A stretch of DNA of 64,000 nucleotides, from positions 832,001 through 896,000 of the forward strand of contig OY970195.1 of NCBI GenBank assembly GCA_963708185.1, read 5' to 3'. Every line of letters begins with the position of its first letter. The first letter of the stretch is position 1. Under the pieces are notes generated by a model that was given only the letters and a program-made list of their open reading frames with translations, made no database searches and was not told where the DNA came from. The position numbers were made by a program, and so were the translations under genes. The DNA is from Candidatus Peregrinibacteria bacterium (lineage in GTDB: Bacteria > Patescibacteriota > Gracilibacteria > UBA1369). Shown piece after piece: positions 13,685-47,671 of this stretch.

Positions 13685-13794
13685 ATTCTATTAAATTTAA
13701 TTAAACTTTGTTTAAACATACTTTAAACATTGCCAATTTTTTATTTTTGTTATCTTTTATTAAATTTTATACAATTCTATTAAATTTAATTAAA
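13685..13794. repeat. 21-bp direct repeat ATTCTATTAAATTTAATTAAA (2 copies) in an AT-rich intergenic region
   Basis: Exact copies at 13685-13705 and 13774-13794. Confidence 0.8.
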
Positions 13795-14001
13795 TCTTTT
13801 AGGGATAATTTATAAAATTGTCGACGTTTTCTCAAAAAAATGTTCAAAACTCTTCCATGCGGTTTTCGTAGAATAAATGTTATTTTTTGTTTTAAATATG
13901 CGGAAAATACGCGTTTAGCTTAAGATTCACGTTTAAAATGGCAGAAAACCTTTCAACGGCTGAGAACCCTGTCTTTTGTAAAACATGGCGGGAATAACGC
14001 C

Positions 14002-24904: not shown

Positions 24905-24933
24905 TTGACTATTTCCAATATTTATTTTATAAT
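24905..24933 (+). promoter_or_regulatory. Sigma70 promoter (divergent)
   Basis: TTGACT-N17-TATAAT. Confidence 0.7.
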
Positions 24934-24956
24934 TGCAATCCATTCTTTTCTTTCTT

Positions 24957-26360
24957 ATGACTTCACAGGAACGCCATCAAAAAGACGAGACGTTTGAAGC
25001 TTACCGCGACCGGCATAATGTGCAGGCGGAAGAAGCCATGTTTCTGCGCAGCCTCGGCCTGAACGTGGAAGGCGAAGAGAACGATGAAACGAAATCTGTC
25101 AGCGACCAGGTTGCGGAAAAGATCGAGCATATCTTTCGCTTCGTCGATAAGGCTTTTGAAGGGCACGGCATCAAGGACGCGGATATCACGCTCAACCTCC
25201 GCGAGCTTCTTTTGAAAGACCTTTCACCGTTCCTCAAAAAAGATAAAAGTTCGGTCTCAATGATGGATATTTCCACACTTGGACTGGTTGACGAAAGTAA
25301 AATCCGCGCGTTCCTGCAACGCCATGGCGTGAACCTTGACCGTCCTGCGGAACTCCAATATGCCCTCAACGTTTTCCGGGAGGCCGTTGAATTTTACGAC
25401 AATGAAATAGCGCGCGGGAAAACTCCGAAAATCCACAAAACCCTCGGCAAGTTTTCCGGCGCCGAAGATATTTATAATCTTTTTCAGACATCGTCAGGCC
25501 AGGGAATACGCCATCTTATCCCCCAGGCCTGTGCAATTTTGCGTATTGGCATGGTCATCGATTTTATCCAGAAAGACCCTTTGATTTCACACTTGTCCCA
25601 CGTGCAGGGAGAGCTGAAGAACGCGGTGCATCGGCACGTACGTCAGGTCGGCAACACCTTCATGTACCACAGCGGCGATCCACAGGAAAAACCGATTCCG
25701 CTTATTACCGCTGAAACCCGTGTAAAAACCCGCGAACGGATCATCATGAAACTTCTTCACAAGCCGAGCAACAGCACTTCGGAAGTGCTCGACCACATCG
25801 GTTACCGTTTCGTGACCGAATCGGCCATCGATACGCTCCGTCTTATTTACCAGATGTTTTTCGACAAGAACACCGCCGTACTTCCGGCCCTCAATATACG
25901 CGTCAACAAGACCAAACAGAGTCTCGTCGATCCAAAGATCCTCATGGCAGCGCTCAAGGACGCCCGTGAGGCTGAAGAGCTTTTTGCCCAGCTTTCCGAA
26001 GACACCATCAACCACCAGGACGTTGATACTGAATCGTTGACAGGAACCGACAATGCCCATTCGTCCAAGAATTATCGCGCGATTCACCTGACGATCGACT
26101 TTCCGGTCATCATTAACGGTCTTCAGCAGTTTTTCCCCATTGAAATACAGTTCGTGGACAAGACCGCCCATCGCGACAACGATGAACTTGCTCCCCATGC
26201 GGATTACGTTGAAAAACAACGGCAGGCTGCCTCTGAACGCGTCATCGGCAACAATCTCCATTCCAACTATCAAATCCAACGCCAACATTACAGCAAAAAC
26301 GGTAAAACTGCCCGGAAAGCGAAAAAAGTGAAAGCAAAAAAAAGTTTCCCGTCAGATTAG
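24957..26360 (+). CDS. TIGR04552-like protein (RelA/SpoT-related nucleotidyltransferase fold)
   Basis: RVKTRERIIMKLLHK, DHIGYRFVT, NYRAIHLT, FPIEIQF resemble RelA/SpoT synthetase motifs. Confidence 0.75.
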   Translation: MTSQERHQKDETFEAYRDRHNVQAEEAMFLRSLGLNVEGEENDETKSVSDQVAEKIEHIFRFVDKAFEGHGIKDADITLNLRELLLKDLSPFLKKDKSSVSMMDISTLGLVDESKIRAFLQRHGVNLDRPAELQYALNVFREAVEFYDNEIARGKTPKIHKTLGKFSGAEDIYNLFQTSSGQGIRHLIPQACAILRIGMVIDFIQKDPLISHLSHVQGELKNAVHRHVRQVGNTFMYHSGDPQEKPIPLITAETRVKTRERIIMKLLHKPSNSTSEVLDHIGYRFVTESAIDTLRLIYQMFFDKNTAVLPALNIRVNKTKQSLVDPKILMAALKDAREAEELFAQLSEDTINHQDVDTESLTGTDNAHSSKNYRAIHLTIDFPVIINGLQQFFPIEIQFVDKTAHRDNDELAPHADYVEKQRQAASERVIGNNLHSNYQIQRQHYSKNGKTARKAKKVKAKKSFPSD

Positions 26361-27373
26361 ACTCCGTATTTCGTCATCAAACTGTCGGCCAGATCGTTGA
26401 GCTGTTGGCCGAGATTTTGCAATGTGGTGTCTTTGGCGACTCCCTGGGCCGAGTCATTTTTGGCTTCATCGGCAAGGTTTTTTAACTGCGTAAAATCTTT
26501 TTGAACGGCGGCTCCGTATGCTTCGAAAAGTTTCTCGAATCCCTGGGCCATGAGGCTCGCTCCCTGGGTGACGTTGGAATTTGGATCTTCCTTCACGGCG
26601 TTATCGGTGTAGAAAACTGCTTCCTGGGCACGGGTCAGGGCGATTTCAATATCACCTTCCTTGACGTGAATGAGCGCATCGACAAGTTTGGCTTCCGCAG
26701 TACTGAGGAGATCCTGGGTCGTCCCGCCGTTTTTGACGATGTACATTTTGTACAAAATTTCAGCGCAATCGGCACGGGAAAGGTACTTTCCGGGTTCGAG
26801 TCGATTGTCGATGGTCGGTTCAACAATACCGACGTTTTTTGCGTAATTGAAGTACGGGACATACCAGTCACTGACGTTTACAATATCGCGTGAAAGCGCA
26901 TACTGGACCGTTTGATAGTCACTGAGATCAACGTTAAAAGCCTGCTCGGTCATTTTCAGGAATTCGGCTTTATTGACCTGGCGCGCCGGAGCGAACGTTC
27001 CGTCGGGATTTCCGTTGACGATCTTTAAATTCTGGCCGTTAAAAACATATCCGCTGAACCAATCACTGAGTTTCACGTCTGGAAATCCGGTCTGGTAAAG
27101 GCCGCTCGTGACCTGGACTCCGGCAGTCAAAAGAACCATCTTGAGGGCTTCGGCACGGTTCACTGCCTGATCGGGACGGAACGTCCCGTCGTTGTATCCC
27201 TGCACGACTCCAAGGTTTTTCAGGCTTTCGACTGCGGAATAGTAGGGACTCCCTGATGGAACGTCCGTAAAAGACGATGCGAAAATTTTCTGTACCCCCG
27301 TGAAGGACAATGCCAGGACGAGCAGAAACTGGACACCAATTCGTACAGAAAAACATACAGATGATCGATTCAT
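26357..27373 (-). CDS. S-layer homology (3xSLH) protein with helical C-terminal domain
   Basis: Signal peptide; FTDV...GYNDGTFRPDQAVNRAEALK. Confidence 0.9.
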   Translation of the reverse strand: MNRSSVCFSVRIGVQFLLVLALSFTGVQKIFASSFTDVPSGSPYYSAVESLKNLGVVQGYNDGTFRPDQAVNRAEALKMVLLTAGVQVTSGLYQTGFPDVKLSDWFSGYVFNGQNLKIVNGNPDGTFAPARQVNKAEFLKMTEQAFNVDLSDYQTVQYALSRDIVNVSDWYVPYFNYAKNVGIVEPTIDNRLEPGKYLSRADCAEILYKMYIVKNGGTTQDLLSTAEAKLVDALIHVKEGDIEIALTRAQEAVFYTDNAVKEDPNSNVTQGASLMAQGFEKLFEAYGAAVQKDFTQLKNLADEAKNDSAQGVAKDTTLQNLGQQLNDLADSLMTKYGV

Positions 27374-27404
27374 TCCTCGGTATTAAATGTCATGAATCTC
27401 CAGC

Positions 27405-28466
27405 TTAGCTTGGCGGCAGCTGGTTGAGAATTTCGTTGGCACGGTCTTTGATATGGCGGGCGATGGGCTGGATATCGTGGTTGACGTCCCAGGCTTCGGT
27501 CGCCTTGGTGATGGCCTGTTCCGCCCAGTTTTTAGCGCCGGCGTAATCCTTGGCGATCGCGGAAATGAAAGCGTTCATGAGGTAATCGTAGGCTTTGGCA
27601 AGTTTGGCCGCGGAGAGGACGACGTTATCCGTCGGCATATTCGTGTAAGCCTGCTGGCTGAAATCCACGGCGAGTTCTGAAGCGCGCTTCGCGGCCACGG
27701 TATTGTTGGCAGCCACGTAAATTTCGATCTGGCCCATTTCCGCTTCGGTCTGGTCGATGAGAAACTGGGTATTTTTATCGCTCCTGATAACGATCATCAA
27801 ATAGAGGATTTCGGCTACGTCGCCGCGTGTGAGCGACCGTCCCGGATAGAGCATGTTCTGGTCATCTTTGGAGATCAGTCCCGCTTCGCCGGCATAGTTC
27901 ATGTACGGCGTGAACCATGCGTCGGCCGGAACATCAGGAAACATCGACTGTCCGACCCACTTGTCGGTCTTGAAACCGTTCAAAATCAACAACATTTTCA
28001 GGAATTCGGCGCGAATGACGTTCCTGGCGGGAGCGAACGTTCCGTCGGGATTTCCGTTGACGATGCCGAGTGTTTTTGCCTGTTCGACATATTTTGCGAA
28101 CCAATCGTCCGCCTTGTAATCCGAAAAACTTGCCTGGGCAACGGTGTCCGGCACCTGAACCTTGTTTCCGATCAGGAGGATCTTGAGCGCTTCCGCCCTG
28201 TTCACAAGATTTTCCGGTTTGAACGTCCCATCATCGTAGCCGTCAAGAATTCCCTGTTTTTTCAAATACATGATGGCGACATAGTTGGGATGCGTCTGAG
28301 GGACGTCGGAAAAGCCGTCCGCCTGCTGGGTTGCCGTTACGGCGGCTTGTGTCGTTGCCTGCGTGGAAGTATCAGTTGTTGATGTGGCGGTCGTGTCCGT
28401 GAGGGCGTACACGTTACTCGTTACCAGAAACGAAATCAGAAAACCGATGGCAATTTTCTTTTTCAT
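27405..28466 (-). CDS. S-layer homology (3xSLH) protein, paralogue of 26357-27373
   Basis: Signal peptide; FSDV...GYDDGTFKPENLVNRAEALK. Confidence 0.9.
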   Translation of the reverse strand: MKKKIAIGFLISFLVTSNVYALTDTTATSTTDTSTQATTQAAVTATQQADGFSDVPQTHPNYVAIMYLKKQGILDGYDDGTFKPENLVNRAEALKILLIGNKVQVPDTVAQASFSDYKADDWFAKYVEQAKTLGIVNGNPDGTFAPARNVIRAEFLKMLLILNGFKTDKWVGQSMFPDVPADAWFTPYMNYAGEAGLISKDDQNMLYPGRSLTRGDVAEILYLMIVIRSDKNTQFLIDQTEAEMGQIEIYVAANNTVAAKRASELAVDFSQQAYTNMPTDNVVLSAAKLAKAYDYLMNAFISAIAKDYAGAKNWAEQAITKATEAWDVNHDIQPIARHIKDRANEILNQLPPS

Positions 28467-28593
28467 AATTTTTCTGTCAATTGAGTGTGGAAGTTACTTT
28501 TTATTATACATTCTTTTAATTTTTTTTCCAGAATAGAATATTTTCAAAAATATTCAAGAATGATTTTCTGGATGACGGCTTTTTCTTGTTATT

Positions 28594-31500
28594 TTATTTG
28601 AATTCGGTAACGATAACGACTCCGTTTGCGCCGGCGCCGCCGTCTCTATTGGTATTACTCTGGGTTAACGCTCCGCTTCCACCGGAACCATACGTGTTAC
28701 CAGCGTTACCCGTATTCGTCGAACTGACGCCCACGGCGCCCCCGCCGAAGAACGATCCGCCGCCTGATCCTGAAACTCCGTTCCCGCCTGAGAGATGCAA
28801 TCCAGGGCTTCCCGCGTCTCCTGTAGTGTTGATGTCGCCACCTGAACCTGCCCCTCCGGTTCCCGGGTCGGTCGACGAAGAGGTCCCGGATGTTGATCCA
28901 GGTCCTCCGCTTCCTCCGCTTCCTCCGGTTGCGCTCAAAAGGCCTGTCCCGAAAGTTGAGGTTCCGCCTGTGGATCCTGATCCGCTACTGGCACCAGCGC
29001 CTCCCCCGCCTCCGGTACCGACAGCATAGGCATAGCTTGCGGCAGGATTGACGATTAAGCGTCTGGTATATCCGCCGCCGCCGCCGCCAGCCCCGGCTCC
29101 CGTACCGAAACCCGTACCGTTGGAACCGCCGCCTCCTCCTCCTCCTCCGACAACTTCAACCATGATGGCGGTGACGCCAGCCGGGGTTGTATACGTGCCG
29201 CTTCCTGAAGTAAAGATCTGTCGGCTTGAGGGTCCGGGAGTAGCCCATAAGGTGTTCGTACCGTTTGTCTGTAAATACTTGTTGGCGTTTCCCGTTTGCG
29301 AGGGTAACGAAGAAGAACTGGTGTTGCCGTAGCCCGTGAAAATCCATAATGATTGCGTCGAGTCGTACATGAATCTGGCCACGGCGGGTCCGGGGACCGC
29401 GAGGTCTCCACCGGTCAACGTGAGAATCCTGTTGGCGGCCGTCGACCCTGCGTTTTGATTGGAAAGGGTCATGGTGTTGGTTGTGGTGTTGTAGAGATTG
29501 AGCATTTTCCCGTTCGCCCCGCTGCCAATCCCGGTAATGGAAAATGCAGCGCTCGGTCCGGTGATGCGAACGTTCGATGAACCGTCAATGGCGATATTGT
29601 TGTTGGCGCCGTTGGCGAGCGTGAGCGAGGTGCTGCGCAGCGCGAGGTCTCCGTTGACGTCGAGTTTGGTATTGGGAGCGGCAGTGCCTACTCCGTAACT
29701 GTTATTGGTTGAGGTCCCGTTGTCGACGATATTCGTTGATGCGTTGGTGATCTGGTTTTCCTGAACAAAATTATTTGAACTTGTGTTGTCGACGATGGAG
29801 ATGCCCGATGCAAAGTTTGACGGAGAACCGCGAACGGTGTTTCCGATAAGGGTTGAATAGGTGACGTTCGCAGCAAGCTGGATACCGATGGCCGAGGTAT
29901 TGTTGTTGCCTTCAATGGTGTTGTTCATGACCATGACGTCCTGATCGTTGTTGAGGTAGAGACCAAGGGATCCGGCATTGAAACCTACATTCCTTGCACG
30001 GTTGGAAAAGATGGCCGAGGAAGACGTGTACGTAAAATCATAGGAGGTTTCAGCGGCTTCGTTGACGATCATTTCGGAAATGATGCTGTCCATAATGCCG
30101 TTGCCATAACCGAAGGTTTGACCTGCTACCGGCGCACCGCCGTCAAAATGGACACCGTCAACCCAGCGGTCGGCGGCCACGTCGCGGTCGATAATGTTGC
30201 GGGAAGCCGTAAATCTGGCACCCGACGCCGTCGCTCCATCGGTAAAGACGATGGCGGTATGCGTGGTGGTTTTGGTGCCGATGGACTGGACGACCATATC
30301 GAGAACTTTATTCTGGGCACCGCCGTTCATTTCGATACCGTGGACATCTGGGCCGACCTGAAGCGTGAAATTATTGATGATGACGTTGCTGCGTGGGGAA
30401 GTACCGTTGGAGGCGCCGACCTGAATGACGGCGACATGACTTCCGGTTCCGCCCGTCCAGGTTCCGGTCTGTGCTCTGACCATCGTGCCGGGTCCTTCAC
30501 CTTCGAGTTCGATGTTGTCCTGTGTAATGGTGAGGGGCGCCGTGATATCATGCGTTCCGACGAGAAGTTTCACCACTCCACCACTGGCGCCGAGACTGTT
30601 GATAGCTCCCTGGATGTTCATTCCGGGAGAAACGTTAATGGTTCGGTCGGGAACCGTGGTGATCGTGCCGCTTGTGACCACGTTACTTCCTCCGACGATC
30701 GTCACCGGCCAGTCGAGAACCTTCAAAGGATCCCTGCTTAAAAGGTTAATCACGGTTATGACAGAGCTTGAACTTAAACCTGATGACGCAACAGTGTTTA
30801 AAAGTGTTCCGGTTCCAGTGGATTCCGTACACTGGTTGAAGGTGGCGATGGTGACCGGTTTTGTCCCTGCTGTACTGCTGACACCTATCTTCGAACCGTT
30901 GACGATAAAGTTCACCTGGGTGAACTGTATGGCGCTGTTGGATGCGGCATTGTACTGGACATCCATACCCATTGTTGCGGTTATCGCGGCATCAACGCTA
31001 ACGGTCAATGTTTCAAATTTCGAGTCGTAGACGCTCAGTTTTCCCGCACCCTGGACGGCGATGGTCGTGAGCGCGGTATTGGTTCCTCTTATTTTTATGT
31101 TGGCGAGGTTGACCGTGGTTGTTACCGGATAGGTGCCGGGGTCCACCCACATTTCGCCTCCGGAAAGCGTGTTCAAATAGGCCGCGGCCGCGGAAATGGT
31201 GGTATAGTCGCGTCCGCTCGGGCCGACGGTTACGATTTTCGACGCCGTCGAAGCGGTGATCGAACCTTGCAAAGGCTTCCAGATCGTTCCGTTCCAGTCG
31301 TAGGTTCCGGTACCGCAGCTTGGACTGACGCATCCCGGGGCAACCGAATCGGTGGCCGTCAATTCTACGATGCGTCCCGTGTCCGTTGCAGGGAGACCTC
31401 CGGCTCCTCCGGGCATGGCCGTGACGTTTTCGACGCGGAAGGTGGTGAGCTGGTTATTGTTGAGATCCAGCTTGTCGTTGAATTCAAAACGGGCCAGGGT

Positions 31501-31734
31501 CTGGTTATACAGGAGTGTCTTCGCCAATGTTGATCCGAACTGCAGCACGATGTTGCCTGCATTACTATTGTTGTTGTCGATGACGAGATTGTCGGAATCG
31601 ACCGTCGCAAAATTATCATCCTGGAAAAGAATCGCCGCATGGGCGGTTGGCGCTGCCTTCAACGATCCGACGGCTATAAATAGCACTGCTATCAGAATCG
31701 TTGTTCCAAATTTTTTTCGGATGTGATCCACCAT
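28594..31734 (-). CDS. Secreted fibre/adhesin-like protein with beta-helix (pectate-lyase-like) domains and Gly-rich C-terminus
   Basis: Signal peptide ending AHA; YTTISAA...PGTY and IQGAIN...GGVVKL beta-helix caps; GVGTAAPNTKLDVNG; GGGGGGG-rich tail. Confidence 0.8.
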   Translation of the reverse strand: MVDHIRKKFGTTILIAVLFIAVGSLKAAPTAHAAILFQDDNFATVDSDNLVIDNNNSNAGNIVLQFGSTLAKTLLYNQTLARFEFNDKLDLNNNQLTTFRVENVTAMPGGAGGLPATDTGRIVELTATDSVAPGCVSPSCGTGTYDWNGTIWKPLQGSITASTASKIVTVGPSGRDYTTISAAAAYLNTLSGGEMWVDPGTYPVTTTVNLANIKIRGTNTALTTIAVQGAGKLSVYDSKFETLTVSVDAAITATMGMDVQYNAASNSAIQFTQVNFIVNGSKIGVSSTAGTKPVTIATFNQCTESTGTGTLLNTVASSGLSSSSVITVINLLSRDPLKVLDWPVTIVGGSNVVTSGTITTVPDRTINVSPGMNIQGAINSLGASGGVVKLLVGTHDITAPLTITQDNIELEGEGPGTMVRAQTGTWTGGTGSHVAVIQVGASNGTSPRSNVIINNFTLQVGPDVHGIEMNGGAQNKVLDMVVQSIGTKTTTHTAIVFTDGATASGARFTASRNIIDRDVAADRWVDGVHFDGGAPVAGQTFGYGNGIMDSIISEMIVNEAAETSYDFTYTSSSAIFSNRARNVGFNAGSLGLYLNNDQDVMVMNNTIEGNNNTSAIGIQLAANVTYSTLIGNTVRGSPSNFASGISIVDNTSSNNFVQENQITNASTNIVDNGTSTNNSYGVGTAAPNTKLDVNGDLALRSTSLTLANGANNNIAIDGSSNVRITGPSAAFSITGIGSGANGKMLNLYNTTTNTMTLSNQNAGSTAANRILTLTGGDLAVPGPAVARFMYDSTQSLWIFTGYGNTSSSSLPSQTGNANKYLQTNGTNTLWATPGPSSRQIFTSGSGTYTTPAGVTAIMVEVVGGGGGGGGSNGTGFGTGAGAGGGGGGYTRRLIVNPAASYAYAVGTGGGGGAGASSGSGSTGGTSTFGTGLLSATGGSGGSGGPGSTSGTSSSTDPGTGGAGSGGDINTTGDAGSPGLHLSGGNGVSGSGGGSFFGGGAVGVSSTNTGNAGNTYGSGGSGALTQSNTNRDGGAGANGVVIVTEFK

Positions 31735-31761
31735 AATACTTTGAGAGTAATAATCACGACA

Positions 31762-31787
31762 GTGTCCCGCACCGTGGTGCGGGACAC
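31762..31787. repeat. Perfect intergenic hairpin
   Basis: GTGTCCCGCACC-GT-GGTGCGGGACAC, 12-bp arms, no U-tract. Confidence 0.8.
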
Positions 31788-31797
31788 AACCTGACTA

Positions 31798-33477
31798 TTA
31801 ATTGTTGTAGACGAGTTTTGCCGTACCTGCATCAGCGAAAGTTGTTCCGCCGGTGCGATCGTAGAGTTTGACGTCTACTTCCATGGTATCGCCTGCAGTC
31901 AGCGTGGCGCATCCTGCGTTGAGGGTGGCGGCGGTAATCGTTGCCGTTGACCAGACGTTGGCCGTAGCAAGACCTGCACTGGAGCCGCAAGTTGTAGCGG
32001 TTGTTACATCGGTGACCGTTACGTCGACTTTATTATCGGTAGCCGTGGTTGTTCCCGTACGATAACCAAAGGTAAAGTCACCGGTGCTTGCAAAGTCTGC
32101 CGGGAGCGGGAAGCGGAACTTCACGTCAATATCCTGCTGTGAGATTCTATTGGTGGTCCAACCGAAATACTGCTGGCTGTTAGTTGCATCGTAATCCTGA
32201 ACCAACGTACCGTTATTTGCTGAACCGTCGCGTGAAATCACGTAGTCGGGATACTGAGGAGCGAAGGTCAGATCTTCAACGTTCGGTGCGTTTGCACCTG
32301 TCGTGGAGCCGAGTTCCTGGAGGGCGGATTCAACGTTTGTTCCAGTGAAATAACCGCCCGCGTCGTTGATGCCAAGCAGGCTGGCGCCCTGACCGGAAGA
32401 GGTGAGGGTCAGAGCATTCAAAGCATCGAGGACTCCTGTATTACCTGCGCCGGTATAGGTCGCAGAAAGACCGGTCTGGCTGGTATTGAAGTTCAACGGA
32501 GCCGTGAGGTTGGAATCGTTGAAGGTGATGTTTCCTGCTGAAGACAGAGCGATGTCTCCGGAGGTCGTTGTCTGGAGGTTCAAATCGCCGGTATCGGTTC
32601 CCACGGTGGATGCTCCAGAACCGGTGACGCTGAACGCGCCGGTGGTGGAAGAGAAGTTCAACCCTCCCGTTCCCCATGTGCCGGTAATTCCACCGGCGGC
32701 ATTGGAAGCGTCGAGGCTGATGGCGTTGGAAGCGGCACCTGAACCTGTGATGTTCGTTGAATCAGCGGTTTGGCTGTAGGTACCAGTTCCGGCATCGATA
32801 CTGAAGTTGCCGTTGGATGTGGTCAGTGTCTGATCGCCGTCAGCGTTGTACACTGATTCAAGATCCTGAGGTCCTGCCGTTCCCCAGGTGTTGGTCGATG
32901 TACAAACCTGGAGGGTTGCTGAAGTGGTGTTGAAGAAAAGATCACCAGCGGAACATGTTGCCGGGTTGGTTGCGCCGGTTGGAACAGCCGGGGCAGGTGT
33001 TATCCATGTTCCCGGTGTACCGGTTGCGGTACAGATCATGAGGGCGTTAGATGTCGTATTCACGATGACTTCACCGGTGCTTGAACAATCTGCATTGGTG
33101 TTTGGATCGGGATCTTCACGCAGACGAACGCCTGCAGCCGCCGAGAGGTCAACCTGGCCTCCACTGACGGTCAAGCCGTTGGTGGTGGTCAAGTCGCCTG
33201 TTACGTCGACCGGATGGTCAACGGTGAAGCGGTTTGTGGTGATATCCCATGTAATGTTCCCATTTTCGGAAGCGGTCGGGTCAGCGCCGAACTGGATGCC
33301 GGTGTTGACGGAACCGCTGTCGTTGGAACCGATCTGGATGGCGTCGGATTCAACGGTTGCAAAGGTGTCATCCTGGAAAAGGATGGCAGCGGAAGCGGTT
33401 TGCGCCACGATGCCCATAAGCATCATGCCCAGTGCGAGTGAGCTTAAGAAGCGCATTTTGGTGTAGAATTTTTTCAT
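31798..33477 (-). CDS. Secreted Thr/Gly-rich fibre-like protein
   Basis: ATG at 33477; signal peptide ending ASA; two CxxGxxxxNTTSxxLxxCT repeats; FTGTNVESALQEL. Confidence 0.8.
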   Translation of the reverse strand: MKKFYTKMRFLSSLALGMMLMGIVAQTASAAILFQDDTFATVESDAIQIGSNDSGSVNTGIQFGADPTASENGNITWDITTNRFTVDHPVDVTGDLTTTNGLTVSGGQVDLSAAAGVRLREDPDPNTNADCSSTGEVIVNTTSNALMICTATGTPGTWITPAPAVPTGATNPATCSAGDLFFNTTSATLQVCTSTNTWGTAGPQDLESVYNADGDQTLTTSNGNFSIDAGTGTYSQTADSTNITGSGAASNAISLDASNAAGGITGTWGTGGLNFSSTTGAFSVTGSGASTVGTDTGDLNLQTTTSGDIALSSAGNITFNDSNLTAPLNFNTSQTGLSATYTGAGNTGVLDALNALTLTSSGQGASLLGINDAGGYFTGTNVESALQELGSTTGANAPNVEDLTFAPQYPDYVISRDGSANNGTLVQDYDATNSQQYFGWTTNRISQQDIDVKFRFPLPADFASTGDFTFGYRTGTTTATDNKVDVTVTDVTTATTCGSSAGLATANVWSTATITAATLNAGCATLTAGDTMEVDVKLYDRTGGTTFADAGTAKLVYNN

Positions 33478-33558
33478 AATGTTTTGGGGGTTAAATTTTA
33501 TTTTTAAGATATTTTTATTGTTTGAGAAGGTATGAAGTTTCAAGGCACCTGCCGTTGA

Positions 33559-33618
33559 TTTGACGTTTCCCTTTCGACTGCCATGTTCGACCATTCATAG
33601 CGGACGAAAGGGGTCAAA
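33559..33618. repeat. Intergenic stem-loop
   Basis: TTTGAC..CCCTTTCG pairs with CGAAAGGG.GTCAAA. Confidence 0.6.
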
Positions 33619-33659
33619 TTGTCATGAAGAATTTTTCATAAGTGCTTGGGGTTACTGGA

Positions 33660-34967
33660 TTAGCGTCCGTTATAATTGAGTTGAAGCCGCGCTGCATCCG
33701 CGAAGCCCGTGTCTTTTGCCGTCATTTTGACGTGGATGGTGATCGGCTCTCCGGCGGCAAACGCTGGTGATCCGCCGAACGTAATGTCAGATGTTGCAAA
33801 GGTTGTGGAAACGAGTCCGGTTGCACCGGTAAGCGTTACGCTGTTGCCGTCGGTGTCTTCAATCGAAATATCCACCTGATTGTCTGCTGTTGAAGCCGTT
33901 CCGGTTCTGTAGGTGAACTGCACCGGTGTGGCCTGCCAGGAGACGAACCCGCTCGGTAACGTCGTACGGATGACGATATCCATGTTCTGAAGCGAGGTCT
34001 GGTTGGTGGTCCATTCATAGTAGTTGATGTTGTTGTTCCCGGGGGCGCCGTCGGTATCGGCAAAGTAGTCTTTGAGTGTGCCTTTATTGCTCGTGCCGTC
34101 GGGTTGAATGACGCCGTCGGCATACTCCGGTTCGTAAACAATGCTCTGGTCGTAAGGGCCAACGGTGGTATTGTCGATGGTGACGCCGTTGATGGTTCCC
34201 GTGGTCGTTAAGTCTCCGGTTACGTTGACATTGTCGTTGAAGTTAAACCATCCCGCGGCCGTATCGTACTCTAAAAATTTATTGAGGGTATTGCCGAACT
34301 GGAGCGAAACCGACCCCGGACCAACCACGGAGTTATCGTTGTCGATGATAAACGTATCGTTATTAGTTCCACCCGGTATGGTGCTTATGGGAAGCTGTCC
34401 CGATCCATCGAGGAAGGGAACATCTCCGGGAGCGCAGGTGGAGATACTGGTACAAGCGTCGTGGTTATCAAGTGTGTCCGCGTTGATGGCGAATGCGGAA
34501 GCGTCCAAAGGGAAACGGTCCGTGGTGTTGGCGGTGTTTCCATCGGGGTCGAGCACTTCATAGCTCGTATCCGGAGAGCCGGAAGGTTTGACGTCGACTT
34601 GGAGATACACGTCGGTTGATGAATTGAAGTTCGGCAGCGTGGTGATGCTGCCAAGTCGGACCTGGAAAAGGCCGTTACTGTCTGGTGTAACGGAATAGGT
34701 TTCGGTCCATCCGGTGTATCCGGGCGCGGAAGGATCAATGGCACCGGAGCCCAAAAGATCGGAAGCCGTAAAATCAGCGTTGTCCCAGAGACTGAATCTG
34801 ATATCCTGCGTCGTGGCGACGGGAACTCCGCTCGTATCGGTTAAGCGGGCACTATAGGAGACCGTGTACGGTGACGTGGTTGTTCCCGGAGGAGGTGCTG
34901 CGAGCGTCTGCTGGAGGAGTCCTCCAACAGTGATCAAAGCAATCAAAACTGTCGTGAATTTTTTCAT
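33660..34967 (-). CDS. Secreted fibre-like protein with SYxxRLxD N-terminal domain
   Basis: Signal peptide; SYSARLTDTSG...RFSLWD...WTE...NGLFQVRLG; C-terminal domain homologous to that of 31798-33477. Confidence 0.8.
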   Translation of the reverse strand: MKKFTTVLIALITVGGLLQQTLAAPPPGTTTSPYTVSYSARLTDTSGVPVATTQDIRFSLWDNADFTASDLLGSGAIDPSAPGYTGWTETYSVTPDSNGLFQVRLGSITTLPNFNSSTDVYLQVDVKPSGSPDTSYEVLDPDGNTANTTDRFPLDASAFAINADTLDNHDACTSISTCAPGDVPFLDGSGQLPISTIPGGTNNDTFIIDNDNSVVGPGSVSLQFGNTLNKFLEYDTAAGWFNFNDNVNVTGDLTTTGTINGVTIDNTTVGPYDQSIVYEPEYADGVIQPDGTSNKGTLKDYFADTDGAPGNNNINYYEWTTNQTSLQNMDIVIRTTLPSGFVSWQATPVQFTYRTGTASTADNQVDISIEDTDGNSVTLTGATGLVSTTFATSDITFGGSPAFAAGEPITIHVKMTAKDTGFADAARLQLNYNGR

Positions 34968-35116
34968 CTCAATCTGAGCTTACATTTTGTTTTTGTTTTT
35001 TGAGATTTTTTACTATCGTTATATTTTAACATATTTTTATTATTTGTGGAGGGGCAAATGTCATTATTTCGTTAAGAATACATTGACATACTTAATAAAA
35101 TATTTTTTATAATACC

Positions 35117-36880
35117 TTGTGGCCGTTTTGGCCAGTTTCTGCTAAGGTGAGGGTTGCAGTTTTCAGCATTTTTTCTTTCCTTACGACAAAATTTACAAAA
35201 AAAATCGGTATCGTCATGGAGATTCTCTGGCTTGCCGTGGTTTTCGCTCTTCCGCTTGTCTTTTTTCCAACAGTTTTTACGACCTTTGAACTGGCAAAAA
35301 CGTTTATTTTTCAAGGAGCGGCCACGCTGCTGTTGCTGTTGTGGATTCTGAAATGTTTCTTCAATGGTTCCGGTCCGGTTTTCGAAAGGAAATCCCACCG
35401 GTTCTTATGGGTGTCATTGGCAATTTTTCTCGGTTTTTACCTTCTGGCGACGGTGTTTTCGGTGGCTCCTGCGTTGAGCGTTTTTGGCTGGTATCCCCGT
35501 TTCCAGGGATTGCTGGCGTTTTTTAGTTACATTGTTTTCGGCTTCGTGCTTTTCTTTGAACTAAAAACCGAAAAGCAAAGGGAACGTTTCATCCTGGCTG
35601 TTTTGCTGGGTTTCGTTTTGGCCTGCCTCATGGCGATGATGCAAAAATTCCTCCCCGGATTTCTGCAATGGTGGAACGATGCCGAATTTAACGGAAGAAT
35701 CTACGGAACCATGGCCAACCCCAACTACCTTGCAGGATACATCGTAATCGTCGCCCCTCTTGCTTTGGGTAACATCTTCAGGAAAAAATTCAGATGGTTT
35801 TCTGTGTTTTGCCTGCTGTTGGGCGTCACTGCATTATTGTTGACGCTTTCACGGGCAGGGTTTCTGGCGTTTTTTTTGAGCGTCGTTTTTTTGCTCGGAG
35901 CGGTCGCCTATCGTCGAAAAGCCATGAAAACACTGGTGGCTCTGGTGATTCTGCCGCTTGTGGCCGCGGGCTTCGTCTGGTTTGTCATCGCACACCAGCA
36001 GGAAGACTGGGTCACCGCCAATCCTTTTTTGAACCGTATCACCACGAATGAAGAGAACGTTTCGTCCGCGCAGTCGCGCCTGGAGATCTGGCCCGCGGCG
36101 GTAAAACAAATATTGGCGAGTCCCTTCATCGGTTTCGGACCGGAAACTTTTGCCGTCAGCTTCCCGGCCTATGCTCCTTCGACCGTCAATACCCGTGAAG
36201 ATATGGGCGAGATCGTCGATCATGCCCACAATGAGCTGCTGGACATGGCCGTTCAGACCGGTATTCCGGGAATGCTCGCCTATCTGTGTTTTCTTGCAGG
36301 ACTGGTCGCCGCGGGAGGAGGTTATTTCCTCAACAAAAAAGGCTCCGACAGCGAATCATGGCTTGTACTAGGTCTTTCCTCCTCCATTCTGGGGCTTTTC
36401 ATTGCCAACGAGTTCGGTTTTTCCGTGACCGTTCACTGGGTACTGTTCGCGGCTTTCGCTGCAGTGATGCTGAACATCATCCATCAAAAAGAGATGCGGG
36501 AAATTCCCTATCGCGTCGCGAACTGGCTGAAAGGATTGCTTTTTGCTTTGGTGGCCCTGTTGAGTATCGGCATGTTCTGGGTTCATGACGTGAACCTTGT
36601 GCTCGCCGATGCCACGATGCGGCAAGGGTATGACGCTATTCTTGCCGGTGATCTTCCCACCACCGCGCAGTACTATCAGGCGGCGGCCCAAACGGCTCCT
36701 GTGGAAGCTTTCTATTCGCTTAACCTGGCTTACGTTGATCTTCAACGGCTGTATGATGAGCAAAAACTCACGGCAGTGGAAATTCTTGACGCTTACGGTT
36801 CAGCTTTGCACGCTTCCCGTTTGCGTGGATATGACAGTTTTTCGCTTTCCGTTGCTCAGGAATTGCATAATACTTTTTAA
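35117..36880 (+). CDS. O-antigen ligase family (Wzy_C) membrane protein, possible O-oligosaccharyltransferase
   Basis: GTMANPNYLAG, TLSRAG, RLEIW, GFGPETF, HAHNELL; many TM segments; start uncertain. Confidence 0.9.
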   Translation: MWPFWPVSAKVRVAVFSIFSFLTTKFTKKIGIVMEILWLAVVFALPLVFFPTVFTTFELAKTFIFQGAATLLLLLWILKCFFNGSGPVFERKSHRFLWVSLAIFLGFYLLATVFSVAPALSVFGWYPRFQGLLAFFSYIVFGFVLFFELKTEKQRERFILAVLLGFVLACLMAMMQKFLPGFLQWWNDAEFNGRIYGTMANPNYLAGYIVIVAPLALGNIFRKKFRWFSVFCLLLGVTALLLTLSRAGFLAFFLSVVFLLGAVAYRRKAMKTLVALVILPLVAAGFVWFVIAHQQEDWVTANPFLNRITTNEENVSSAQSRLEIWPAAVKQILASPFIGFGPETFAVSFPAYAPSTVNTREDMGEIVDHAHNELLDMAVQTGIPGMLAYLCFLAGLVAAGGGYFLNKKGSDSESWLVLGLSSSILGLFIANEFGFSVTVHWVLFAAFAAVMLNIIHQKEMREIPYRVANWLKGLLFALVALLSIGMFWVHDVNLVLADATMRQGYDAILAGDLPTTAQYYQAAAQTAPVEAFYSLNLAYVDLQRLYDEQKLTAVEILDAYGSALHASRLRGYDSFSLSVAQELHNTF

Positions 36881-43774: not shown

Positions 43775-46700
43775 TCAATCGTCGTGTGCCATCGTTTCTT
43801 CACCGTCGTTTCCCGACTGCTTTGTCTGCAGGGCTTCCTTGACCTCTTCCATTTCCGACGCTCCGGCTTTGCGGTCGGTTTTTTTATCAATCAGGCCCGT
43901 AAGGTGGTTTGTCCGTGACAACATGGCTGAGACTTTTTCTATGCCCTGACGGTCAACCATTTCCTTCAAGTTTTTGGTCAGATCGGCGTTAAACTTTTCG
44001 ATAGCCTCTTTTTGCCCTTCATATTCACCCTTTCTTGTGGGGGGGATGATTTCCATGACCTTTTGGAACTCCTGATCCATGCCCAGCTGCGATGAGACGT
44101 CCCTGATGACGCCTCTGACTTCCTCAATAAATCCGCCGACGGTTTTCGCTCCGCTGATACCAGGTTTGCTGTTGTAGGTTGTTTCACTGAAGCGGAATCT
44201 GTTCGGATTGGCATGTTCATAACGTGTGGACGCCACGGCATCAAAAATGACGAACGATTTCATCATCTTTATGATGCGTCCGTAATGGGCGCTGATATTT
44301 TCGTCGACCTCTTTCATGTCGAACATCTTTTGCGTCCCAGGAGGCATTTTTCCAATGCGTTTTTTCTCCCTGAGCGATTTATCAAGGTTAAAGATTTCGC
44401 GTCTGATGAACTCATTCAGTCCGGCAAAAGCGTTCTTGATACCCGACGTTGATACCTGCTGACGGGCACCACCTGCAATTCTCGTGATCTGATCGATGGT
44501 CCCTTCATCAAGCATCTGGACGAACATATCCATATCGTCGTGATCCCAGGTACTGGGATCTCTCGCGGCTTTTTCGGCACGGACCGCGGCGTAAGGATCC
44601 CAGGCAATGGTATCACGGACGAAGTTCGTAAATTCTCCTATTTTTCCTTTCGGCCATTTTTTTTGCTTCCAGTAAACGTCGCTGGGGTTGCCCAGGTGAC
44701 CGGCTTCAAGTTTTCCGCTGGGGATGTCGGGAAGAATGTACTGATGAATCCAGCCTTTGAAGGTTCTCACATCAGGGCGTCCGGTTTCATACCCTCCAAT
44801 CGTTCCGTCGTCGTTTTCTTTTTTGGGGTCCCAGATGCGGTTGCCCTTTTCATCCAGACGGTACTGCAGCGGACTGATGAAGAAATCGATCAATGGCAAC
44901 GTATTGAGGTAGACACCCTCCAGCGCCGCGACGCGATCGATGTGGAGCAGGGTTTCTCCATGTGGGTTGGTTGCGCCGACGCCCATGATGAGGAAGAACA
45001 TTTTATCTTCAAAGGCCATCTTTCCAGCTTTCATGGCAAAATCCAGGTACTCCTCATACTGACAGGGATTGACGTGTTCCCCGTTAATAAAATTGTAAAG
45101 TAAACGTCTCAGTTCACCCGGAAGACCGTTTGGGTCATTTTCGAGACGGATCGCGTTATCTTCAAAGTTCTTCTTAATGCTGTTATACGCCGAGTCTCCG
45201 CTGTTGCGGAATTCGCGGAAGGTATCCTGCCCCCACCAGCCGTCGAGAATTTTCTCGATGTCTTCCAAGTAATGATCCGGCCTGATTTCCTCCCCGGAAA
45301 ACTTTTCGATTGCATGCCAGAAATGGTGATCGTCCCAGCGCATCTGGCCTTTTTTACACATTACCGTGATGGCGGCTTTGAGGGTATCTCTGTCCGGCGG
45401 TTCATGAAGTTCGTGCTTGATGTCTTCGATACCCTGAGTTTCCATCACATGGACATGGTGATTCACTTCCTCGTTTTCCGCGGCCTGGGCGATGGATTTG
45501 AATTCGGCGCCCAATGCGGTGCTGTAGTTGCCGAACATCATCCTTCCCGCTGCGCCGATACGGCCTTTTTGCCTTCTGCCCCAGCGACGTTTGATGAGCT
45601 CCCAGACGGTTTTGCCCATTTCGGTAAGGTCGGAGATGGAAAGAAAGTAGGTGTCGCGCCAGAGCTTGCGCATGGCACTCATCGGAACATGAGAATGCGG
45701 TTCCTCTTCCAGCAATACGGCGTTTCCCGGCTTTGCGATGATCCCTTTTTTGTCTTCCTCGATCTCATGTTCGGCTTTGGCTTTTTCTTTTTCGAATTCA
45801 GCCTCTTTCTTGAGCGGGTCTGCGATGTCGTCGGTGGCCTTGTGCGCTTCGGCTTCGGCTTCCTTTTTTTCGACTTCGTTGTCTTTGACCCAGCGCAGGA
45901 ATGCCGTGAAACTCATCATTGTTCCTCCTTCAAACTCGATTTTCTTGTCTTTTTCGTGGACCTTTTTGATGACGAACTCTTTTCCGATGTCATCGTCAAA
46001 ATAAAGCACTTCTCCGTCTTTGGCTTCCACAGGCGGATACTGCGCGCCGGAACGTTCATAAAATGTGTTTTGCTTTTCATTGAAAGCGTGAAGTTCGTGA
46101 CGGAGTTTTTCCAGATTCTCGACCTCCTTCATGACCTCGTTTTGCTTGAACCACTTTGCGAACTCGTCAAAATTGAACTCCTTTTTGAGGCCCTTTGAGG
46201 TTTTGACGTCTTTATCAAGGACGACCCTGTGATTGTCCTTGTCGAGTTTCTTGATCTCGACTTTTTCGTCTTTGTTGACCTCTTTGTCGGTCCCCTTGTT
46301 TTCAGTGATATGGTACTCCAGAACGCCTCCTTCCCTGAGCTCTTCCCCGATGCTTTTGGAGAGTTTGTCGTAGGAGTCGATGTCTTCCAGGACGTCGTAG
46401 TCGTCGGTCCATTCATAGAAGTCGTTTGTGGAGAATTTATCTTCTTCGATCCTGCCGGTATATGGATTGATCGATTCCACCGTCACGACCGGATTATTGG
46501 TTTTTACCTTCCCCACGACATTCCCTTCTTCGTCCTCAACATTGATTTCCTCGAATTTGACGTCCTTGATGACGGCTCGGTGGACTTTGGGTTCCTTCTG
46601 GTCTTTGTCTTTTTCGTTATCCTTGTAATTGAGTGCCTGGCCTGTTTTCACGTTGAGACCTGTGGCCTTTTCAAGTTCAATGAGCGCCCGGCGCTGGCGG

Positions 46701-47443: not shown

Positions 47444-47627
47444 AGTGATCCTTGTAAAGGGATGTATGTGTCCCTGCGGCGAGCATGCTGCGCGTATGCA
47501 TGAACAAGCATGGGTTGCTTTGGGACGTTTATGGCCTTATGGCGGCCATTTGACCATTGCTTTGATTTTCTGGTTGTTCTTTTCGGATTGTCTGATGAGA
47601 AGTGAAACCTGCAGTGTTCTCGCGCTG

Positions 47628-47655
47628 ATTTTATCATTATTTTAATTTTTGTCAA
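47628..47655 (-). promoter_or_regulatory. Sigma70 promoter of the 1222-aa gene
   Basis: TTGACA-N16-TAAAAT with TG extension. Confidence 0.65.
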
Positions 47656-47671
47656 TATTTCAGGCTTTCCG

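What the first reader, a model, noticed from the sequence alone, without database searches (positions are those of the whole stretch)
28594..34967. Three-gene fibre system with interlocking shared modules
Seen: all three genes have signal peptides. Two begin their mature chain almost identically (AILFQDDNFATVDSD, AILFQDDTFATVESD). All three share a module [IL]QFG...F...[VL][DN][VL]. Two share a C-terminal domain (PxYxD...DGxxNxGTL...WTTN...QxxD...LPxxF...YRTGT...DNxVD). The third has beta-helices and a Gly-rich tip instead. Known: motifs like FTGTNVESALQEL and GVGTAAPNTKLDVNG occur in phage tail fibres and trimeric adhesins. Inference: a Sec-exported chain-like fibre of base (435 aa), shaft (559 aa) and glycan-binding tip (1046 aa), where the conserved N-terminal peptide docks into the previous subunit's C-terminal domain.
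Basis: partly seen in the sequence, partly recalled or inferred. Interest (0 to 1): 0.75.

Follow-up and report, generated by a model that had tools for sequence, protein, structure and literature searches.

The report
Secreted modular fibre genes in Peregrinibacteria
Three neighbouring genes of an uncultured, small-genome bacterium encode exported, fibre-like surface proteins built from shuffled modules, some resembling phage tail fibres, and probably used to bind sugars on other cells; how the proteins join together is still unknown.

Summary
Three minus-strand genes, A (33660-34967, 435 aa), B (31798-33477, 559 aa) and C (28594-31734, 1046 aa), all start with Sec-type leaders and share modules.

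- **B and C:** a near-identical mature N-terminal "cap", AILFQDD.FATV.SD.
- **A, B and C:** a ~60-aa module I call M (..ID.D..LQFG..L..W/YD...F.F.D).
- **A and B:** a 160-170-aa C-terminal domain (CTD).

New findings:

- The CTD models as a carbohydrate-binding-module-like beta-sandwich, as at the C-termini of Klebsiella phage tailspikes.
- C has a pectin-lyase-like beta-helix core and a phage-tail-fibre Gly-rich tip.
- M is a repeat found in 1361 representative proteins, and no Pfam family matched it here.
- The A-B pair is conserved in related genomes (38 of 42 loci), usually near small SLH wall-anchor proteins (16 of 19). C is accessory (5 of 31).
- The locus sits among housekeeping genes, so it is not a prophage.
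- The cap is lineage-specific, shared by paralogues, and the most conserved part of B.

Best reading: a surface fibre/spike set with a shared N-terminal adaptor and lectin-like or depolymerase-like distal parts.

It assigns glycan binding to C, whereas the lectin-like fold is in A and B.

The parts
33660..34967 (-). Gene A, 435 aa: leader 1-24, N-domain 'AN' about 25-165, module M 201-265, C-terminal domain (CTD) 266-435
   Evidence: ORF. 113 relatives. AF2 model with mean pLDDT 83.7. No Pfam, NCBIfam or PHROG family.
34173..34367 (-). Module M of A (residues 201-265)
   Evidence: BLASTP to C 48-105 with E 4e-8. HMM hit with E 4.8e-10. Three short strands at 219-243 in the model.
33663..34172 (-). 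CTD of A (266-435), CBM-like beta-sandwich
   Evidence: BLASTP to the B CTD with E 4e-17. pLDDT 78-89 for 271-320 and 92-98 from 321 on. Foldseek against PDB: 8iq9_B Klebsiella phage K2-2 tailspike E 4e-5, TmCBM61 2xon/2xom, CBM35 2w1w, CBA120 TSP4 5w6h, Kp7 gp52 7xyc.
31798..33477 (-). Gene B, 559 aa: leader 1-30, cap 31-45, M 46-105, two Cys-paired small beta-domains about 106-205, extended shaft 206-398, CTD 399-559
   Evidence: ORF. Start supported by relatives. 110 relatives. AF2 model with mean pLDDT 80.3. Conserved C131, C149, C175, C192, C497, C523.
33343..33387 (-). Cap peptide of B (AILFQDDTFATVESD), directly after the A-S-A cleavage site
   Evidence: It is the most conserved segment of the B family: mean pairwise identity 0.66 against 0.44-0.55 for the other mature segments.
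31801..32283 (-). CTD of B (399-559), same fold as the CTD of A
   Evidence: Foldseek against PDB: 2xon_L E 2.1e-5, 8iq9_B E 2.5e-5, CBM11 1v0a, CBM4 1k42, 7xyc.
28594..31734 (-). Gene C, 1046 aa: leader 1-33, cap 34-48, M 49-105, conserved beta-helix core about 106-680, phage-tail-fibre-like end 654-1045
   Evidence: ORF. 62 relatives. 60-61 of the 62 cover residues 51-650, and at most 3 (self included) cover anything beyond 850.
31591..31635 (-). Cap peptide of C (AILFQDDNFATVDSD)
29695..31419 (-). Core of C (106-680), parallel beta-helix of pectin/pectate-lyase type
   Evidence: The family profile A4 hits PDB 7chu_A 'putative pectin lyase' with E 2.2e-6. Homologue P0262 matches Pfam NosD with E 5.5e-7. 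The Atlas nearest clusters are Beta_helix/NosD/Pect-lyase at 0.89-0.91, which is a lead only.
28600..29775 (-). C-terminal part of C (654-1045), phage tail-fibre-like, including the Gly-rich domain 843-1042
   Evidence: phrog_863 (tail) E 1.3e-35 and phrog_6202 (tail fiber protein) E 1.3e-10. Pfam Gly_rich_2. PDB Pam3 tail fibre 7yfw/7ypx with E about 7e-5 over 834-1045.
27405..28466 (-). SLH protein 1 (353 aa): leader, SLH repeats, about 120-aa C-terminal part without a family. Candidate wall tether.
   Evidence: Pfam SLH with E 7.1e-36, 3 stretches. A small SLH protein is present in 16 of the 19 related loci that have at least 6 kb on both sides.
26357..27373 (-). SLH protein 2 (338 aa), paralogue of SLH protein 1
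   Evidence: Pfam SLH with E 1.5e-29. phmmer between the two gives about 1e-61.
35117..36880 (+). Divergent neighbour: Wzy_C (O-antigen ligase / O-oligosaccharyltransferase type) membrane protein. Possible glycan handling for the envelope or these proteins. Association is weak.
   Evidence: Pfam Wzy_C with E 2.5e-25. One search shows it beside A in L001-L004; one search counts it in 3 of the 35 loci with at least 2.5 kb upstream (L001 has less).

Best explanation
The locus encodes a set of Sec-exported, probably trimeric fibre or spike proteins for the cell surface of a Peregrinibacteria/Peribacteria-type (CPR) bacterium. They are assembled from a small kit of shuffled modules: an N-domain (AN), a ~60-aa repeat (M), a CBM-like beta-sandwich (CTD), a pectin-lyase-like beta-helix, and a phage-tail-fibre Gly-rich end.

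A and B are the conserved core pair. C belongs to a variable class of accessory spikes.

B, C and other paralogues in related genomes begin, right after signal-peptide cleavage, with the same lineage-specific cap followed by the first M unit. I read this as a common N-terminal adaptor that plugs different distal parts into one socket on the envelope. Phage receptor-binding proteins and the adenovirus fibre use conserved N-termini in this way (recalled, not from a call).

The distal parts would then bind glycans (the lectin-like CTDs of A and B) or bind and perhaps cleave them (the beta-helix and fibre tip of C). The targets would be sugars on other cells or polymers, which fits the presumed host-dependent lifestyle.

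A, B and C have no SLH domain, no LPXTG motif and no lipobox cysteine at the cleavage site. The two adjacent SLH proteins are therefore the likeliest tether to the wall.

Shown: export signals by sequence features, module sharing, folds, conservation of the locus, non-phage context.
Inferred: trimer state, surface retention, which end is proximal, glycan binding, and the partner of the cap.
For: **Module sharing.**

**Folds.** Both CTDs hit the same CBM and tailspike C-terminal domains. The C core matches pectin lyase 7chu. The C end matches PHROG tail families and the Pam3 fibre.

**Trimer hallmarks in M-bearing proteins.** Among 22 M-bearing representatives scanned with Pfam: Collagen in P0287; BclA_C/C1q in P0302 and P0354; Peptidase_S74 in P0399. 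BclA_C also occurs in C homologue P0248.

**The cap looks like a shared functional element.**
- Between B and cap-bearing paralogues of the same genome it is 8-14 of 14 identical, against 15-31 of 60 for the next 60 residues, in 7 pairs.
- It is the most conserved part of B.
- Different lineages use different caps (ILFQDD, DVLIYSxE, DLVNTESF, SSWxPTLLVNTESF), and each is shared by the paralogues of one genome. L022 has four tandem genes with the same cap.
- 95 N-terminal M copies in the 148 new representatives start at profile position 3 or lower.

**Locus conservation.**
- 52 of 58 related loci hold a full A-type gene.
- 38 of 42 have a CTD-bearing B-like gene next to it.
- 16 of 19 have a small SLH protein.
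- The C core is in 5 of 31.

**Cellular context.** Housekeeping genes flank the locus. The same atpB-Wzy-A-B order appears in L001-L004. A and B have no tblastn match in 50,697 phage records.

**Literature.** Peribacteria genomes are described as investing in cell-envelope components, S-layer genes and large extracellular proteins that may attach to other cells (PMC4736985, passages read).
Against: - No oligomer was modelled, and no partner of the cap is identified.
- The closest complete relatives L002 and L003 have A-B-C but no SLH gene within 10 kb. SLH tethering is therefore not obligatory, or is encoded elsewhere.
- A and B are evenly and fairly well conserved along their length: 0.46-0.55 mean pairwise identity for the mature domains of A and 0.44-0.66 for the mature segments of B. 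This is not the pattern of fast-evolving host-range determinants and would also suit a structural coat.
- Which end is proximal is unknown. A CBM-like CTD could just as well bind the cell's own wall polymer.
- The cap may be nothing more than the first strand of the first repeat. Native sequence upstream of internal M copies aligns to cap positions more often than shuffled sequence does (120 against 50 of 241 reach profile position 6 or lower), although the score gain is only 0.8 bit.
- Glycan binding and depolymerase activity are inferred from fold alone. No Pfam CBM or lyase family reaches threshold on the window's own proteins.
Confidence: 0.55

Rival explanations
1. A is the base, B the shaft and C the tip of one linear heteromeric fibre. 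The cap of each subunit docks into the CTD of the previous one, like donor-strand or T4 long-tail-fibre joints.
For: - The distribution of parts fits: A has a CTD and no cap, B has both, C has a cap and no CTD.
- A and B almost always co-occur (38 of 42).
- The cap is under strong protein-level constraint shared by B and C.
Against: - The CTD models as a complete beta-sandwich with no missing strand (pLDDT 92-98 from residue 321).
- B's cap stays disordered and does not contact B's own CTD in the monomer model.
- Roles are not fixed. 2 of 62 C homologues end in a CTD, 1 begins with AN, and 28 carry further M units after the core.
- 92 of the 148 best M-bearing representatives have no CTD by my HMM.
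- C is absent from most related loci.
Confidence: 0.1
2. A and B are subunits of a surface coat (an S-layer or sheath) held on the wall by the SLH proteins, not discrete fibres. Cap-bearing proteins such as C are decorations on it.
For: - A and B are evenly conserved and near-universal in the lineage.
- They neighbour SLH proteins in 16 of 19 loci.
- S+T+N+G make up 0.39-0.47 of the residues, and Cys is rare.
- S-layer genes are reported for Peribacteria (PMC4736985, passage). S-layer proteins are predicted in Patescibacteria (bioRxiv 10.1101/2024.05.28.596244, passages; its supplements were not seen).
Against: - No lattice or self-association test was possible.
- M travels with collagen, BclA_C and S74 domains, which mark trimeric fibres.
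- The B model has a roughly 170-residue extended shaft with no regular secondary structure.
- L002 and L003 lack nearby SLH genes.
Confidence: 0.15
3. Reversed polarity. The CBM-like CTD binds the cell's own wall glycopolymer and is the anchor, so the N-terminal cap and M point outward.
For: - The CTD fold is that of carbohydrate-binding modules.
- The CTD is as conserved as the rest of the protein.
- A Wzy_C gene neighbours the locus in the closest relatives.
Against: - C and most cap-bearing paralogues have no CTD and would then have no anchor.
- In the phage tailspikes with this C-terminal fold the domain is distal (recalled, not from a call).
Confidence: 0.1
4. The cap has no partner. It is simply the first beta-strand of the first M repeat, conserved for folding, and the paralogues share it by descent.
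For: - The cap resembles, by eye, the strand (RF.F.DD..) that ends each M unit and precedes the next one (alignment).
- Native upstream sequence of internal copies reaches cap positions in 120 of 241 cases, against 50 of 241 after shuffling.
Against: - The score gain is only 0.8 bit, and just 1 of 241 internal copies aligns from profile position 3 or lower.
- The cap is far more conserved between paralogues than the repeat that follows it.
- It always sits exactly at the signal-peptidase site.
Confidence: 0.2
5. A degraded prophage tail module.
For: - The end of C matches phage tail families.
- Foldseek against viral models lists minor tail, tip-attachment J and tail fibre proteins for A, at TM about 0.2.
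Against: - All three proteins carry Sec leaders.
- No other phage gene lies nearby; the flanks are ATP synthase, ThrRS, UvrA and Wzy.
- The locus is conserved across 52 of 58 related species-level genomes.
- A and B have no tblastn match in phage records.
Confidence: 0.02

Closest known systems
Phage receptor-binding proteins: tailspikes with a C-terminal lectin-like domain (Klebsiella phage K2-2 TSP 8iq9, Kp7 gp52 7xyc, CBA120 TSP4 5w6h) and the cyanophage Pam3 tail fibre (7yfw/7ypx)
   Same: - Modular build, with a conserved N-terminal part shared by paralogues and exchangeable distal parts.
- Beta-helix core in C.
- CBM-like C-terminal beta-sandwich in A and B.
- Gly-rich fibre end homologous to Pam3 and to PHROG tail families.
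   Different: - Here the proteins carry Sec signal peptides and are chromosomal genes in a conserved cellular locus.
- A and B have no sequence-level match to phage records.
- The N-terminal cap and M matched no PHROG family in the scan of A, B and C.
Gram-positive surface filaments built from trimeric modules, such as the Bacillus exosporium protein BclA (collagen stalk plus C1q-like BclA_C knob)
   Same: - Secreted, probably trimeric fibres with a distal knob.
- BclA_C, C1q and collagen domains occur in M-bearing relatives.
   Different: - The window's A, B and C have no collagen repeat or BclA_C domain.
- The anchoring is different and unknown.
SLH-anchored S-layer and cell-surface proteins
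   Same: SLH proteins are encoded next to the fibre genes and in 16 of 19 related loci.
   Different: The SLH domains are on separate small proteins, not on A, B or C. No lattice evidence exists.
Donor-strand-exchange pili (chaperone-usher, type V) and the multi-protein T4 long tail fibre
   Same: They embody the idea of a short N-terminal extension, or end-to-end joints, linking different subunits in a fixed order.
   Different: - No chaperone or usher family appears among the neighbours.
- No interface has been shown.

Membership tests
Phage tail fibre / tailspike proteins | Sequence homology to phage tail-fibre families | tested here: met
   Met for the C-terminal part of C only: phrog_863 E 1.3e-35 and phrog_6202 E 1.3e-10, Pam3 fibre E about 7e-5. 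A and B have no significant PHROG hit (A none; B's best E 0.39) and no tblastn hit in phages.
Phage tail fibre / tailspike proteins | Encoded in a phage or prophage, and part of a virion (no export signal) | tested here: not met
   Housekeeping flanks. Conserved cellular locus. Sec-type leaders on all three.
Pfam Gly_rich_2 (PF21722) | Score above the gathering cut-off | tested here: met
   C residues 843-1042, 44.8 bits against 24.3.
Parallel beta-helix, pectin/pectate-lyase-like | Profile similarity to a solved or curated beta-helix family | tested here: met
   The C-family profile matches 7chu_A putative pectin lyase with E 2.2e-6, over profile positions 370-415 only. NosD in homologue P0262. 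No Pfam beta-helix family on the window protein itself. Catalytic residues were not examined.
Carbohydrate-binding modules (beta-sandwich, CBM6/35/61/4/11-like) | Fold similarity | tested here: met
   Foldseek probability 1.00, E 2e-5 to 1e-3, TM normalised to the target 0.5-0.6 for the single-domain CBMs.
Carbohydrate-binding modules (beta-sandwich, CBM6/35/61/4/11-like) | Sequence membership of a curated CBM family; sugar binding | tested here: not met
   No Pfam CBM family even at E<=10. Sugar binding is not testable with these tools.
SLH-anchored surface proteins | SLH domains in the protein | tested here: not met
   None in A, B or C. Present in the two downstream proteins.
Chaperone-usher / donor-strand pili | Incomplete Ig-like pilin fold that needs a donated strand, with chaperone and usher genes nearby | tested here: not met
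   The CTD is a complete beta-sandwich in monomer models. No such Pfam families among 37 window proteins scanned.
Sortase-anchored or lipoprotein surface proteins | C-terminal LPXTG motif or N-terminal lipobox cysteine | tested here: not met
   No LP.TG match in A, B or C. No Cys at the cleavage sites in the printed leaders.
Trimeric fibre proteins in general | Homotrimer formation | not testable with these tools
   Indirect evidence only: M co-occurs with Collagen, BclA_C/C1q and Peptidase_S74 in relatives.

The most novel reading that the evidence does not exclude
The cap is a lineage-specific 'address tag'. After Sec export, any protein that begins with the genome's own cap plus M unit plugs non-covalently into one socket, either on the conserved A/B pair or on the helical C-terminal part of the SLH proteins. 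A small-genome episymbiont could then mount interchangeable lectin, depolymerase and phage-fibre heads on a single surface scaffold. This would be a cellular, extracellularly assembled counterpart of branched phage tailspike complexes, and a direct handle on how Peregrinibacteria recognise their hosts.
Probability: 0.15. Interest if true: 0.8.

Novelty: new variant of a known kind. Interest (0 to 1): 0.5.

Why it matters
CPR/Patescibacteria are thought to live attached to other cells. For Peregrinibacteria no attachment structure has been tied to genes in the papers I could search.

This locus offers a conserved, testable candidate with three parts:
- a core pair of lectin-ended proteins;
- variable spike genes that share one N-terminal tag;
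- nearby wall-anchor proteins.

It also brings out three sequence modules (AN, M, CTD) that no Pfam, NCBIfam or PHROG model matched in these scans. One of them, M, occurs in at least 1361 representative proteins. Naming them would annotate many 'hypothetical' surface proteins.

If the cap proves to be a docking tag, it would predict which proteins of a genome sit on the same scaffold.

Tried and rejected
- **Complex prediction.** A 196-435 (M + CTD, alignment A1) with B 31-110 (cap + M, alignment A2) as partner: no answer (score 0.07, mark 0.32). This counts neither for nor against binding.
- **Genetic code 25** (used by neighbouring lineages): the ends of A, B, C and the neighbouring genes do not change. 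TGA ends 5 of 35 ORFs. Table 11 was kept.
- **Promoter and terminator scan of 26000-35400:** counts no higher than in shuffles, so no operon boundaries could be drawn.
- **NCBIfam and Pfam at E<=1 or 10 on A and B:** nothing meaningful.
- **Sequence search of the PDB with the A and B profiles:** only chance-level hits, E 0.016 to 0.13.
- **Protein Atlas for A:** best score 0.84, unnamed clusters, not informative.
- **tblastn of A, B, the C end and the 'FTGTNVESALQEL' neck against phage records:** none, none, one 14%-coverage collagen-like hit, and one hit at E 5.
- **Clustering of C-family tails:** by single linkage, 52 of 55 tails fall into one cluster. The idea of many unrelated tips is therefore too strong. 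Rather, the window's Gly-rich end is a rare swap, seen in at most 3 of 62.
- **Cap as the strand that precedes internal repeats:** weak signal only.
- **The listing of cluster members for names and taxa of M-bearing representatives:** unavailable. The taxonomic range of M outside the 58 named loci stayed unchecked.

Full report
**1. What is there**

On the minus strand lie three ORFs:
- A, 33660-34967, 435 aa.
- B, 31798-33477, 559 aa. The ORF is open up to 33594, but relatives start at the MKK... of the 559-aa form.
- C, 28594-31734, 1046 aa.

They are followed on the same strand by two SLH-domain proteins, at 27405-28466 and 26357-27373 (Pfam SLH, E 7e-36 and 1.5e-29). Upstream, on the other strand, lie a Wzy_C membrane protein and the ATP synthase operon. 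Further out are ThrRS, a RecF-like ATPase and UvrA.

Reading TGA as Gly (table 25) does not move the ends of these genes. TGA ends 5 of 35 ORFs. The standard bacterial code therefore applies.

**2.

Each protein has a Sec-type leader by sequence features: basic start, hydrophobic core, and A-x-A before the mature end. No dedicated predictor was available.

B and C then begin with AILFQDDTFATVESDA and AILFQDDNFATVDSDN. Thirteen of 16 residues are identical, and 6 of those 13 use different codons. The match is therefore kept by selection on the protein and is not a recent DNA copy.

BLASTP results:

| Pair | Region | E-value |
|---|---|---|
| B / C | N-termini | 4e-11 |
| A / C | A 204-263 against C 48-105 | 4e-8 |
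| A / B | C-terminal domains | 4e-17 |

An HMM of the N-terminal module finds only these three genes among 589 frames in the window.

**3. Relatives and locus**

Each protein has about 60-110 relatives. All named ones come from Gracilibacteria-, Altimarinota-, Peregrinibacteria- or Patescibacteria-labelled metagenome bins, and all are called hypothetical apart from one 'beta strand repeat-containing protein'. Adjacent locus tags (KJ951_03720, _03725, _03730) already show a conserved cluster.

A scan of one genome per species returned 58 loci. Nearly all are labelled Peregrinibacteria, Peribacteria or Gracilibacteria; a few carry only a generic or another label, one of them Kaiserbacteria. My phmmer map of their ORFs gives:

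| Feature | Count |
|---|---|
| Loci with a full A-type gene | 52 of 58 |
| CTD-bearing B-like gene directly downstream of A (loci with at least 2 kb downstream) | 38 of 42 |
| Small SLH protein present (loci with at least 6 kb on both sides) | 16 of 19 |
| C-type core present (loci with at least 8 kb downstream) | 5 of 31 |
| Wzy gene (loci with at least 2.5 kb upstream) | 3 of 35 |

A-B is therefore the conserved core, SLH a frequent companion, and C an accessory. The closest complete genomes, L002 and L003, have A-B-C but no SLH gene within 10 kb.

**4. Folds**

- *A model.* AF2 mean pLDDT is 83.7. It shows a beta-sandwich N-domain, three short strands for M, and a C-terminal beta-sandwich whose 10-residue blocks score 92-98 from residue 321 on and 78-89 for 271-320.
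- *B model.* Mean pLDDT is 80.3. It shows M, two small Cys-paired beta-domains (conserved C131/C149 and C175/C192), a long extended stretch, a short helix and the same C-terminal sandwich. Residues 25-39, which include the cap, are below pLDDT 50 and do not pack on anything.
- *CTD.* Foldseek places both CTDs with carbohydrate-binding modules (CBM61, 35, 6, 4, 11) and with the C-terminal domains of Klebsiella phage K2-2 tailspike, Kp7 gp52 and CBA120 TSP4. Against viral models, A hits minor tail, tip-attachment and tail fibre proteins, but at TM about 0.2.
- *C core.* The family profile matches the putative pectin lyase 7chu with E 2.2e-6. One homologue matches Pfam NosD. The Atlas neighbours are beta-helix families, which is a lead only.
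- *C end.* Residues 654-1045 match PHROG tail families (E 1.3e-35 and 1.3e-10). Residues 834-1045 match the solved Pam3 tail fibre. Pfam calls residues 843-1042 Gly_rich_2.

**5. M is a repeat and the modules are shuffled**

A profile of the cap + M region from 29 sequences found, among 1.84 billion representatives, 1361 proteins at E<=1e-3 and 645 at E<=1e-10. Single proteins had up to 32 matched stretches and lengths up to 6674 aa.

Among the 148 new best hits, my HMMs give these architectures:
- All 148 have at least two M units.
- 56 end in the CTD; M-M-CTD (22) and M-M-M-CTD (19) are the commonest of these.
- 15 begin with A's N-domain.

Within the C family of 62:
- 31 have only the N-terminal M.
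- 28 carry further M units after the core.
- 2 end in a CTD.
- 1 begins with AN.

Pfam on 22 M-bearing representatives shows Collagen, BclA_C/C1q, Peptidase_S74, Laminin_G_3 and CBM_5_12, but no family over M itself. Most of the 40 C homologues scanned have no Pfam domain at all (35 of 40). The rest have Gly_rich_2 (1), BclA_C (1), NosD (1) or SO2946-like_C (2).

The window's Gly-rich end is shared by at most 3 of 62 family members, self included. By contrast, 52 of 55 other tails cluster together by single linkage. So C's end is a rare swap on a conserved core.

**6. The cap**

- The strict cap motif is present in 86 of 110 B relatives, 38 of 62 C relatives and 0 of 113 A relatives.
- More distant lineages replace it with other short N-terminal strings (DVLIYSxE, DLVNTESF, SSWxPTLLVNTESF). 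Each sits at the cleavage site and is shared by the paralogues of one genome. L022 has four tandem genes with the same cap.
- Between B and cap-bearing paralogues of the same genome, the cap is 8-14 of 14 identical while the next 60 residues are 15-31 of 60 identical (7 pairs).
- It is the most conserved segment of B: 0.66 against 0.44-0.55.
- A simpler reading is that the cap is just the strand that precedes every M unit. This has only weak support.

**7. Reading**

The data fit a family of exported, probably trimeric fibre or spike proteins with a shared N-terminal adaptor and exchangeable distal parts. The lectin-like ends are on the conserved pair A/B. The beta-helix with a phage-fibre tip is on the accessory C.

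A, B and C have no SLH domain, no LPXTG motif and no lipobox. They therefore need a partner to stay on the cell, and the adjacent SLH proteins are the obvious candidates. This step is an inference.

Nothing found here speaks for it beyond the distribution of parts, and module shuffling speaks against fixed roles. The glycan-binding fold belongs to A and B, not to C.

A prophage origin is rejected on four grounds:
- the proteins carry Sec leaders;
- the flanks are housekeeping genes;
- the locus is conserved across the lineage;
- A and B have no phage match.

**8. Literature**

The Peribacteria genome paper (PMC4736985, passages read through 'find') reports:
- investment in cell-envelope components;
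- S-layer genes;
- sortase;
- type IV pili;
- large extracellular proteins that may attach to other cells.

It does not describe this family. A preprint on S-layer diversity (10.1101/2024.05.28.596244, passages) predicts S-layer proteins in Patescibacteria. Its supplementary figures, which might name them, could not be seen.

Five searches found no paper on these proteins or on the cap or M module. That is the basis for calling them undescribed, within that library only.

**9. Limits**

- No oligomer was modelled.
- The taxonomic range of M beyond the named loci is unknown (unavailable).
- Signal peptides rest on sequence features only.
- Function rests on fold and context.

Noticed in passing
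window 2-8392 (+): A giant protein of 2778 aa or more, open at the window's start, with FG-GAP repeats and five bacterial TSP3 repeats. It is the kind of large extracellular protein the Peribacteria paper points out (PMC4736985).
   Followed up: no
window 24933-26360 (+): A TIGR04552/TIGR04562-family protein (E about 1e-49), with a weak RelE/StbE-like stretch at residues 324-390 (E 0.012). It lies directly after the SLH genes and converges on them.
   Followed up: no
window 43775-54278 (-): A run of five same-strand ORFs (1222, 887, 578, 532 and 202 aa) with no Pfam or NCBIfam family. The 887- and 578-aa ORFs overlap by 8 bases, which suggests an operon of unknown function.
   Followed up: partly
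window 8416-12713 (+): Four ORFs directly after the giant protein (203, 293, 595 and 351 aa), none with a Pfam or NCBIfam family.
   Followed up: partly
window 12001-14000: G+C falls to 0.41 against about 0.50-0.55 elsewhere, in a stretch with no ORF of 150 aa or more between 12713 and 14002.
   Followed up: no
L022 3488-9330 (+): Four tandem genes that all begin with the same lineage-specific cap (DVLIYSxE...) followed by M, with different distal parts. They sit between the A-type gene and an SLH gene.
   Followed up: partly
L004 14142-18785 (+): In place of C there is a 1547-aa protein whose cap is 14 of 14 identical to that of its neighbour B, and whose next 60 residues are 31 of 60 identical. 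This looks like a recent duplication or exchange of the N-terminal adaptor.
   Followed up: partly
L005 5015-7139 (+): C-type genes appear in pieces (180, 174 and 327 aa), with a masked run (X in the translation) in the first piece. The cause could be an assembly gap or a fragmented gene.
   Followed up: no
window 62703-63776 (-): A fusion of DUF1264 and a cupin domain in one 357-aa protein.
   Followed up: no
proteins P0291, P0403, P0404: Some M-bearing representatives have about 150 residues of apparently unrelated, helix-turn-helix-looking sequence before the cap. These may be mis-called starts or fusions with an upstream gene.
   Followed up: no
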